A DNA stretch of 64,000 nt, taken from IMG/VR virus record IMGVR_UViG_2585427757_000006. One strand, given 5' to 3'. This stretch comes from a virus (lineage: Duplodnaviria; Heunggongvirae; Uroviricota; Caudoviricetes). A model generated the notes under the pieces. It did no database searches and was not told the DNA's origin. It worked only from the letters and a program-made list of their open reading frames with translations. A program made the position numbers and the translations under genes. This document shows, piece by piece, positions 6,075-6,983 of the stretch. The number at the start of each line of letters is the position of its first letter. Position 1 is the first letter of the stretch.

Positions 6075-6983
6075 ATGATTGGTAAGTTGTCTGATTCTTT
6101 GATTGAAAATAAATACAACGAATTTAGAGAAGAAATATCTTTACTTTTTGACTATTTAAATCAGATAAATGATACAACAAAGAAAAATATAAAACGTCTT
6201 CTTAAAGAAGTGGAGTATGCACAAAATCCAGATACTATTATTAATATTAATGAAACTATTAAGATTAAGTGTGGCACAACGTTAGCTCGCCATTTATGTT
6301 CAAACCCATATACAGGTTCAACATTAGAGATAGGTAACAGCGCCATTGATTTAGAAGAAAAGATAAGATTGTGTAATACTTTGAAAAATAAACAATATCA
6401 GTGGGTTATTACTGAAGCCTATGAGTTACTGGAAGACTATATTGAGGCAATATATGTCTATACTGTATGTGTTCGAAATGATTTATGGTCCTCAAGTGAT
6501 TTTGGTAAGGTTGAAGATGATGAAATTGGGAAAAGGGAAGTTTATTACAGATTATTAAAAGCAAAAAGTAACCCATCGAAAAAAATAACTAAAATTTTCA
6601 GAAATAAAATACCTGGCTTCAAAGAGATAGAAACAAACAACAAGATTGGCAAAAACTATCGCTTTAACATCAAGCTAATTGAACTACTAAGACATACAAT
6701 AGTACACAATAGTGGACGATTCAATGATACAGAAAAATTTATAAATAAGGTTTTAGATGAATCTGAAATAAACGGTAAGAAAAGAGTTATTGGAGAAAGA
6801 GCTGTTAGAAGTTACATTACTAAAGTGCAAGAAGATGATATTGTGATGCTCTTAGAAAGACCATCTGAAATTTTAGGTTCTTTTGGTGGGTATTTTAACA
6901 GAGCAAAATTTTTACTAAGTGATATTTTAGAATACTCACTAATCATTAAAGAAGAACTAAAATCATATCTAGGCAATCATTAA
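6075..6983 (+). CDS. AT-rich orphan protein; candidate HEPN-type abortive-infection-like protein
   Basis: 302-aa ORF; markedly AT-rich compared with flanks; contains R-x4-H motif (RHTIVH); plus strand amid minus-strand genes; own terminator. Confidence 0.5.
   Translation: MIGKLSDSLIENKYNEFREEISLLFDYLNQINDTTKKNIKRLLKEVEYAQNPDTIININETIKIKCGTTLARHLCSNPYTGSTLEIGNSAIDLEEKIRLCNTLKNKQYQWVITEAYELLEDYIEAIYVYTVCVRNDLWSSSDFGKVEDDEIGKREVYYRLLKAKSNPSKKITKIFRNKIPGFKEIETNNKIGKNYRFNIKLIELLRHTIVHNSGRFNDTEKFINKVLDESEINGKKRVIGERAVRSYITKVQEDDIVMLLERPSEILGSFGGYFNRAKFLLSDILEYSLIIKEELKSYLGNH

What the first reader, a model, noticed from the sequence alone, without database searches (positions are those of the whole stretch)
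6075..6983. AT-rich plus-strand orphan gene with HEPN-like R-x4-H motif next to the tRNA cluster: candidate abortive-infection/defence cargo
The 302-aa ORF is much more AT-rich than its surroundings. It is on the minority strand, has its own terminator, and contains RHTIVH (an R-x4-H motif typical of HEPN RNase domains found in AbiD/AbiF-like proteins). It lies between a glutaredoxin gene and tRNA genes, a typical accessory hotspot.
Basis: partly seen in the sequence, partly recalled or inferred. Interest (0 to 1): 0.65.

Follow-up and report, generated by a model that had tools for sequence, protein, structure and literature searches.

The report
Uncatalogued solo HEPN-like nuclease gene
A swapped-in, AT-rich gene on an E. 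coli phage-plasmid encodes a member of a large, uncatalogued protein family with the catalytic signature and probable fold of HEPN RNases, which makes it a good but untested candidate for a one-gene anti-phage "suicide" nuclease.

Summary
ORF 6075-6983 (+, 302 aa) has 29% GC against 46% for the window. It is the lowest-GC gene of 56, lies on the minority strand, and sits between a glutaredoxin gene and four tRNA genes. The window is an SSU5/pHCM2-like phage-plasmid, and the gene is a replaceable cassette in an accessory hotspot. The terminator hairpin belongs to the backbone and is stronger on the minus strand.

No partner gene is conserved. Neighbours are often defence or mobile genes, and the gene has lower GC than its flanks in 42 of 42 loci. 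Most likely it is a stand-alone HEPN RNase acting in abortive infection, analogous to HepS and AbiD/F but not a member of those families. Function is inferred, not shown.

The parts
6075..6983 (+). Coding sequence of the 302-aa HEPN-like protein (PHROG 35492; RefSeq WP_001755525.1, 'hypothetical protein')
   Evidence: ORF. PHROG 35492 matches at E 3e-211. The gene is 100% identical in NZ_CP022167, where WP_001755525.1 is annotated at this position. 453 homologous clusters.
6690..6707 (+). Codons for R206-H207-T-I-V-H211, the predicted catalytic R-x4-H motif
   Evidence: R206 and H211 are invariant and H207 is >=90% conserved in 143 sequences. 143/143 have Rx4H and 138 have RHxxxH. The motif lies at the C-terminal end of helix 195-212 in the pLDDT-94 model.
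6387..6455 (+). Codons for N105-Y127, the most conserved block (KNKQYQW...AYE117..E120), including the invariant glutamate E117 (nt 6423-6425)
   Evidence: E117 is invariant. N105, Q107, W110, E120 and Y127 are >=90% conserved. The block lies in the long helix 93-133 that precedes the motif helix.
6065..6069 (+). Shine-Dalgarno-like AGAGG, 6 nt before the ATG
   Evidence: Read directly from the sequence.
5902..6074 (+). AT-rich upstream intergenic part of the cassette. No promoter, repeat array or ncRNA was recognised.
   Evidence: No homology to Cyrano between 5902 and 6983. No plus-strand sigma-70 match. No tandem or direct repeat array. No Rfam hit.
6988..7007 (.). GC-rich hairpin (GGGGC-CGAA-GCCCC with A/T flanks): a backbone bidirectional terminator between the ORF and the convergent tRNA operon
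   Evidence: It is conserved in Cyrano, which lacks the ORF.

Best explanation
The ORF encodes a stand-alone member of a large, uncatalogued family of about 290-aa proteins built around a HEPN-type helical bundle. The predicted metal-independent RNase centre is formed by R206, H207 and H211 at the end of core helix 3, assisted by E117 on core helix 2. The gene is a horizontally acquired, exchangeable cassette in the lysogeny-proximal accessory hotspot (integrase/repressor - glutaredoxin - [slot] - tRNAs) of an SSU5-like phage-plasmid. The most likely function is a one-protein abortive-infection or exclusion system. Under this model the protein is made in the lysogen in an inactive state, and its non-catalytic parts sense an infecting competitor phage. 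Those parts are the N-terminal 50-residue helix, the beta-hairpin at 69-91 and the C-terminal region 219-300. The HEPN site, probably as a dimer, then cleaves cellular RNA (tRNA, rRNA or mRNA) and stops phage production. Shown: gene, composition, cassette boundaries, family size, invariant residues, model topology, lack of a conserved partner. Inferred: HEPN homology, RNase activity, the sensing step, the target, and the defence phenotype.
Confidence: 0.55

Rival explanations
1. It is a helical protein with no nuclease activity. The conserved R/H/E would then serve ligand or nucleotide binding, regulation or structure, as in HEPN domains of nucleotidyltransferases or MtlR, or the bundle is only convergently HEPN-like.
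Against: According to PMC3710099, the non-catalytic HEPN lineages are the ones that have lost Rx4-6H. Here R, H and an upstream acid are the only invariant residues in 143 sequences, which is the pattern of an active site.
Confidence: 0.15
2. It is a toxin used for plasmid addiction or as part of a toxin-antitoxin pair whose antitoxin, a small protein or RNA, was not recognised. It would stabilise the phage-plasmid and would not defend against phages.
For: The gene sits on a low-copy plasmid-prophage. HEPN toxins commonly belong to TA modules such as HepT/MntA and RnlAB. Other plasmids carry a YafO toxin in the same hotspot.
Against: No conserved neighbour in 42 independent loci. No MNT partner is conserved next to the gene. 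No tandem repeats or Rfam ncRNA upstream. Many closely related plasmids lack the gene altogether.
Confidence: 0.12
3. It benefits the phage directly, either as an RNase used during lytic growth for host shut-off or RNA processing, or as an anti-defence factor, and does not protect the lysogen.
For: It is encoded on a phage-plasmid, and 9 relatives lie on IMG/VR viral contigs. There is a weak PHROG hit to an 'anti-restriction nuclease' family at the N-terminal helix (E 0.0027). It lies next to phage tRNA genes.
Against: Most relatives are in bacterial chromosomes, next to defence and R-M genes and not phage modules. The gene is dispensable for the phage-plasmid lineage. It lies beside the integrase/repressor module, where lysogenic-conversion genes usually sit.
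Confidence: 0.12

Closest known systems
HepS (STM14_3211) of Salmonella prophage Gifsy-1, a solo HEPN abortive-infection protein (PMC13043305)
   Same: A single HEPN protein with a canonical Rx4H motif and no conserved partner or inhibitor gene. It is carried in an accessory region of a temperate element, and homologues are scattered across phyla. This is the best functional precedent for how the present gene may work.
Abi_2 family (AbiD, AbiD1, AbiF; PF07751), lactococcal single-gene Abi proteins with a HEPN domain
   Same: Proteins of about 300-350 aa, single-gene, on mobile elements, with an R-x4-H motif in the C-terminal half.
   Different: No Abi_2 hit for the protein at E<=10, and none listed for the 143 relatives. 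It is not a member.
DUF3644 / EC042_2821 HEPN family (PF12358; PMC3710099)
   Same: This is the only Pfam model that touches the protein, at residues 182-223, which cover the motif. Four of 143 relatives hit it weakly. hhalign aligns lRHiIVH with fRDqAVH in register. It is also found next to integrases and methyltransferases.
   Different: The similarity is limited to the ~20-residue motif block, since block-shuffle controls give the same score. DUF3644 proteins have a different N-terminal YN-P block and extra domains.
HepT/MntA type VII toxin-antitoxin HEPN toxins (e.g. SO_3166, PDB 5yep; 7ae2) and HI0074 (1jog)
   Different: They are minimal HEPN proteins of about 130-140 aa paired with an MNT antitoxin. 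This protein is 302 aa with additional elements, and no MNT partner is conserved next to it.

Membership tests
HEPN superfamily | Conserved R-x4-6-H motif | tested here: met
   R206 and H211 are invariant in 143 sequences at 17-60% identity. 143/143 carry Rx4H at the same position.
HEPN superfamily | Polar residue (N, D or H) immediately after the conserved Arg | tested here: met
   H207 is >=90% conserved, and 138/143 have RHxxxH. Criterion from PMC3710099.
HEPN superfamily | Motif at the end of core helix 3 and the start of the loop to helix 4; insert between helices 2 and 3 | tested here: met
   In the pLDDT-94 model the motif closes helix 195-212 and is followed by a loop (G214 conserved) and helix 219-229. 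Residues 134-194 form an insert of short helices after the long helix 93-133. The mapping of helices to the HEPN core is my inference. No superposition could be inspected.
HEPN superfamily | Second conserved acidic residue in helix 2, typically E-x3-[KR] | tested here: inconclusive
   E117 is invariant and E120 is >=90% conserved in helix 93-133, but the context is E-L-L-E-D, not E-x3-[KR].
HEPN superfamily | Four-helix up-and-down bundle superposable on solved HEPN domains | tested here: inconclusive
HEPN superfamily | Significant sequence or profile match to an established HEPN family | tested here: not met
   No Pfam, NCBIfam or PADLOC hit for the protein. Pfam scans of the 143 relatives give only DUF3644 in 4 members (best E 0.0065) and HEPN_Apea in 2 (best E 0.0055), no more often than unrelated families. 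hhalign against a DUF3644 profile gives P 0.042, explained by the motif block alone.
HEPN superfamily | Metal-independent RNase activity; dimeric composite active site | not testable with these tools
   Requires biochemistry, or at least a multimer prediction.
Abi_2 (AbiD/AbiF, PF07751) | Match to the family HMM | tested here: not met
   No hit at E<=10 for the protein. Not among the families hit by the 143 relatives.
DUF4145 HEPN | Match to the family HMM | tested here: not met
   No hit.
HepS family | Stand-alone protein under 250 aa with the motif near residue 100; sequence homology to STM14_3211 | tested here: not met
   This protein has 302 aa with the motif at 206-211 (criteria). The family profile matches no PDB chain by sequence.
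HepT/MntA type VII toxin-antitoxin | Adjacent MNT (nucleotidyltransferase) antitoxin gene | tested here: not met
   The neighbours in the window are glutaredoxin and tRNAs. No neighbour family is shared across 42 independent loci.
Type III toxin-antitoxin (ToxIN-like) | Tandem repeat RNA antitoxin upstream of the toxin | tested here: not met
   No tandem or direct repeat array in 5850-7200. No Rfam match other than tRNAs.
Known anti-phage defence systems (PADLOC-DB 2.0) | Match to any system component HMM | tested here: not met
   0 families at E<=10. Newer DefenseFinder or PADLOC releases could not be checked.

The most novel reading that the evidence does not exclude
The protein is an anticodon nuclease, like HepS, PrrC or RloC. 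Its constant placement directly beside the phage-plasmid's own tRNA genes in SSU5-like elements would then be functional: the element's tRNAs would replace or out-titrate the cleaved host tRNAs, so the element could complete its own lytic cycle while competitor phages are aborted. This would be a built-in nuclease-plus-spare-tRNA self-immunity arrangement. The evidence does not exclude it. In all carrier plasmids examined the gene lies just upstream of the tRNA cluster: it abuts it in E. coli and Klebsiella, and is about 190 bp from the single tRNA in Citrobacter. tRNA-Asn is present in all carriers and tRNA-Ser in all but the Citrobacter plasmid. The evidence does not support it either. The same tRNAs occur in plasmids that lack the gene, tRNA-Tyr and tRNA-Thr do not co-vary with it, and none of 41 loci outside this plasmid group has an adjacent tRNA.
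Probability: 0.07. Interest if true: 0.75.

Novelty: new member of a known kind. Interest (0 to 1): 0.45.

Why it matters
If the prediction holds, this is a sizeable family of one-gene HEPN nucleases: 453 clusters at 50% identity, spread across Proteobacteria, Campylobacterota, Bacteroidota, Desulfobacterota and others. Current annotation and defence-finding resources miss it entirely. Surveys therefore report SSU5-type phage-plasmids, which are common in clinical E. coli, Shigella, Salmonella and Klebsiella, as poor in defence systems (10.1101/2025.09.12.675607). The family comes with three precise residues to mutate (E117, R206, H211), a high-confidence model, and natural allele swaps at one locus in near-isogenic plasmids. 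That makes it a convenient system for studying how a solo HEPN senses its trigger. It would add a member to a known class and would not reveal a new principle.

Tried and rejected
1. Curated libraries. Pfam, NCBIfam and PADLOC gave nothing for the protein. PHROGs gave only a function-unknown family.
2. Word-indexed protein searches found 8-9 relatives and suggested a tiny family. This was misleading: the exhaustive HMM search found 453 clusters.
3. PDB sequence searches with two profiles gave chance hits only.
4. Foldseek against PDB gave nothing significant. AFDB was not available.
5. A tally of weak Pfam hits over 143 members, used as a remote-homology test, was inconclusive.
6. hhalign against a purpose-built DUF3644 profile put the motifs in register, but shuffle controls show the score comes from the motif block alone. 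I rejected it as independent evidence.
7. Conserved partner gene or antitoxin: none.
8. Upstream repeat or ncRNA antitoxin: none.
9. Coupling to the tRNA set was rejected in its simple form. tRNA-Tyr and tRNA-Thr do not co-vary with the gene, and no tRNA adjacency exists elsewhere in the family.
10. 'Own terminator' was rejected. The hairpin is backbone and better on the minus strand.
11. PADLOC on ten large neighbours identified only one strong hit, a type IIG R-M enzyme in L032. The per-locus defence count therefore remains approximate.
12. The first genome contigs attempt with the 143-sequence alignment failed for lack of a conserved stretch. It was repeated with 40 sequences.
13. A literature search for the accession and for similar solo HEPN systems found no report of this protein.

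Full report
**Observation**

The ORF at 6075-6983 on the plus strand is real: ATG start, 302 codons, with AGAGG six bases upstream. Its GC content is 29.2% against 46.2% for the window (SD 4.3% for windows of the same length). It is the lowest-GC gene of 56, and the only place where a 909-nt window falls below 34%. Genes of at least 100 aa run 12 on the plus strand and 44 on the minus strand. RHTIVH is residues 206-211 (nt 6690-6707). A glutaredoxin gene lies upstream on the other strand (5656-5901, Pfam E 1e-11). tRNA-Ser, Thr, Tyr and Asn lie downstream on the minus strand (7162-7719).

One detail of the finding needs correcting. The GC-rich hairpin at 6988-7007 is not the gene's own terminator. 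Phage Cyrano lacks the ORF, and its homology to the window resumes at exactly position 6984 and includes the hairpin at 96.6% identity. The hairpin has its canonical U6 tail on the minus strand (-15.4 kcal/mol, z -2.9), where it would end the tRNA operon. On the plus strand it is weaker (-13.2 kcal/mol, z -1.5).

**What the element is**

The window is an SSU5/pHCM2-type phage-plasmid of E. coli. It is 97.7% identical to 'Escherichia phage CMS-2020a' and to many plasmids of about 110 kb typed as non-mobilizable. The gene is accessory:
- Only 2 of 50,697 phage records encode a relative.
- 58 plasmids do.
- 19 of 5,426 complete E. coli genomes carry this allele, always on a ~110-kb plasmid and never on the chromosome.

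Close relatives of the plasmid fill the same slot with other genes. The slot lies between the integrase/repressor/glutaredoxin genes and the tRNAs. Alternative cargo includes:
- a Gp49/66 protein in Cyrano;
- a 637-aa SASA-esterase protein in CP054387;
- a TolA C-terminal-domain protein and an ars operon in a Citrobacter plasmid;
- PhoH, YafO and a colicin immunity gene in Klebsiella plasmids.

Alleles of the gene fall into discrete classes (>=99%, ~57%, ~43%, ~39% protein identity). Against a plasmid carrying a 57% allele, the block 5675-7288 is 76% identical at the DNA level, while the flanks are about 97% identical. This is cassette exchange at a hotspot, not gradual divergence.

**The protein family**

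No Pfam, NCBIfam or PADLOC model matches. PHROG 35492 matches but has no assigned function. The word-indexed searches found only 8-9 relatives, which made the gene look like an orphan. That impression is wrong.

An exhaustive HMM search of 1.84 billion representatives found 453 clusters at E <= 1e-3 and 142 at E <= 1e-30. Nearly all are full-length proteins of 280-320 aa with no fused domains. Genomic copies occur in Gamma- and Betaproteobacteria, Campylobacterota, Bacteroidota, Desulfobacterota, Treponema and Nitrospira, and on viral contigs.

In an alignment of 143 members at 17-60% identity to the query, only three columns are invariant: E117, R206 and H211. Positions N105, Q107, W110, E120, Y127, W138, E186, N189, H207, V210 and G214 are at least 90% conserved. 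All 143 carry R-x4-H at the same place, and 138 carry RHxxxH.

**Is it HEPN?**

The reference description of the superfamily (PMC3710099) gives these criteria:
- an Rx4-6H motif at the end of core helix 3, running into the loop to helix 4;
- a polar N, D or H after the Arg;
- often a conserved acid in helix 2;
- an insert between helices 2 and 3.

A model built from the 143-sequence alignment is very confident (pLDDT 94.4, pTM 0.90). It shows:
- a 50-residue N-terminal helix;
- a beta-hairpin at 69-91;
- a long helix at 93-133 carrying E117;
- an insert of short helices at 134-194;
- helix 195-212 ending in R206-H207-x3-H211;
- a loop, then helices 219-229 and 235-245, a small hairpin, and a C-terminal helix at 276-300.

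Each criterion is met by this topology, although the acid is not in the E-x3-[KR] form.

There are clear limits to this evidence:
- Foldseek against PDB finds nothing, and AFDB was unavailable.
- At the sequence level, the only Pfam models that touch the motif region are two HEPN families, DUF3644 and HEPN_Apea. They hit only 4 and 2 of 143 members, no more than unrelated helical families do.
- I built a DUF3644 profile from E. coli 042 EC042_RS15105 and seven relatives. hhalign aligns the two R-x4-H motifs in register (P 0.042). Full column shuffles never reach that score (0 of 60). Shuffles of 20-column blocks reach it in 22 of 60. The similarity is therefore the motif block and nothing more.

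**Context and function**

Clustering of the three genes on either side across all loci shows no neighbour shared by independent loci. No MNT antitoxin is conserved beside it, and no repeat array or known ncRNA lies upstream. So the gene is a stand-alone unit.

The two genes on either side in 42 independent loci are heterogeneous, but they include strong matches to defence and mobile-element proteins: GajA (E 3e-238), PD-Lambda-1, PD-T7-5, PDC-S15, PDC-S13, ToxN, AAA_21, FRG, integrases and Bro-N. In a Campylobacterales genome, a type IIG R-M enzyme ends at the gene's start codon.

In all 42 loci the gene has lower GC than its flanks (mean -12 points, p 4.5e-13), in hosts from 31% to 68% GC. 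This is consistent with frequent horizontal transfer, although a compositional constraint of the protein itself cannot be excluded.

In the window, the gene sits beside the integrase and repressor genes, where lysogenic-conversion genes of temperate elements usually lie.

The closest functional precedent is HepS of prophage Gifsy-1. HepS is a solo HEPN with no partner gene, is inactive until it binds a phage tail-tip protein, and then cleaves tRNA anticodon loops (PMC13043305). HepS is a different family: under 250 aa, with the motif at residues 100-105.

My best explanation is therefore a one-protein abortive-infection or exclusion RNase whose non-HEPN parts act as the sensor (confidence about 0.55). 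The rivals are a non-catalytic helical protein (0.15), an addiction toxin with an unrecognised antitoxin (0.12), and a phage-benefit RNase or anti-defence factor (0.12).

**The tRNA neighbourhood**

Because solo HEPN Abi proteins can be anticodon nucleases, I tested whether the adjacent tRNAs go with the gene. They do not:
- A plasmid lacking the gene has the same four tRNAs.
- Klebsiella carriers have only Ser and Asn.
- The Citrobacter carrier has only Asn.
- None of 41 other family loci has an adjacent tRNA.

The adjacency is a property of the SSU5 hotspot. AMR transposons are also reported to insert near the tRNA loci of these plasmids (10.1101/2025.09.12.675607).

**Novelty and score**

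The protein has not been reported and is absent from the libraries checked. A survey of SSU5-type phage-plasmids using standard defence finders does not list anything like it.

Solo HEPN nucleases on prophages and in defence islands are an established kind, and nothing here points to a new principle. I rate it a new member of a known kind, with interest 0.45. It is a well-defined, testable candidate with three residues to mutate and natural allele swaps to exploit, but it is not surprising to a specialist.

Noticed in passing
window 7078-7163 (minus strand): A very stable hairpin lies immediately 3' of tRNA-Ser: a 20-bp near-perfect stem plus an inner 8-bp stem, -41.2 kcal/mol, z -10.4 against shuffles. 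It is in backbone shared with phage Cyrano. Its function is unknown (processing signal, terminator or recombination site?).
   Followed up: partly
window 7162-7719; L001, L002, L052-L054, L004, L005, L010: The tRNA set of SSU5-like phage-plasmids varies: Ser/Thr/Tyr/Asn in E. coli plasmids, Ser/Thr/Asn in phage Cyrano, Ser/Asn in Klebsiella, and Asn only in Citrobacter. Thr, Tyr and Asn tRNAs are, from my own recollection and unchecked here, among those reported as targets of tRNA-cleaving defence systems, so these may be counter-defence tRNAs.
   Followed up: partly
L053:1445-3355 (-) (CP054387), L001:2954-3301 (+) (Citrobacter), L054 (Klebsiella): Alternative cargo occupies the same hotspot: a 637-aa protein with DUF1737, a SASA sialate-O-acetylesterase domain and DUF6645; a 116-aa TolA C-terminal-domain protein, which might be a decoy against colicin or phage entry; and YafO toxin, a colicin E1-family immunity gene, PhoH and an ars operon.
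   Followed up: partly
window 17406-18209 (-): This is the second-lowest-GC gene of the window (36%). It encodes a 267-aa DUF2971 protein (Pfam E 4e-10) and is possibly another acquired accessory gene.
   Followed up: partly
window 56950-57600 (+): This is the third-lowest-GC gene (38%). It has 216 aa and no Pfam match.
   Followed up: no
window 4891-5427 (+) and 5318-5629 (+): Two overlapping plus-strand ORFs (178 and 103 aa) lie in the variable segment 4785-5683, which also lacks homology to Cyrano. Neither has a Pfam or PADLOC match.
   Followed up: partly
P0005, P0006; CP012114 42849-43752: Truncated (172-173 aa) or frameshifted (three tblastn pieces, 95.7%) copies of the gene exist in some E. 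coli plasmids. This suggests the gene is dispensable or costly.
   Followed up: no
L032:164-3420: In a Campylobacterales MAG, a type IIG restriction-modification enzyme (PADLOC E 6e-189) ends at the start codon of a family member. This is the only locus found that suggests operonic coupling to another defence gene.
   Followed up: partly
L049:6669-7181 (-): The gene next to a family member in a Roseateles genome encodes a 171-aa protein with its own RNKLIH (R-N-x3-H) motif and no Pfam match. It may be a second uncatalogued HEPN-like protein in the same island.
   Followed up: partly
L056:2914-6802 (E. coli 042, next to ssrA): The reference DUF3644/EC042_2821 HEPN protein sits in an ssrA-adjacent island, between an integrase and a DNA methyltransferase. 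This matches its published R-M association.
   Followed up: no
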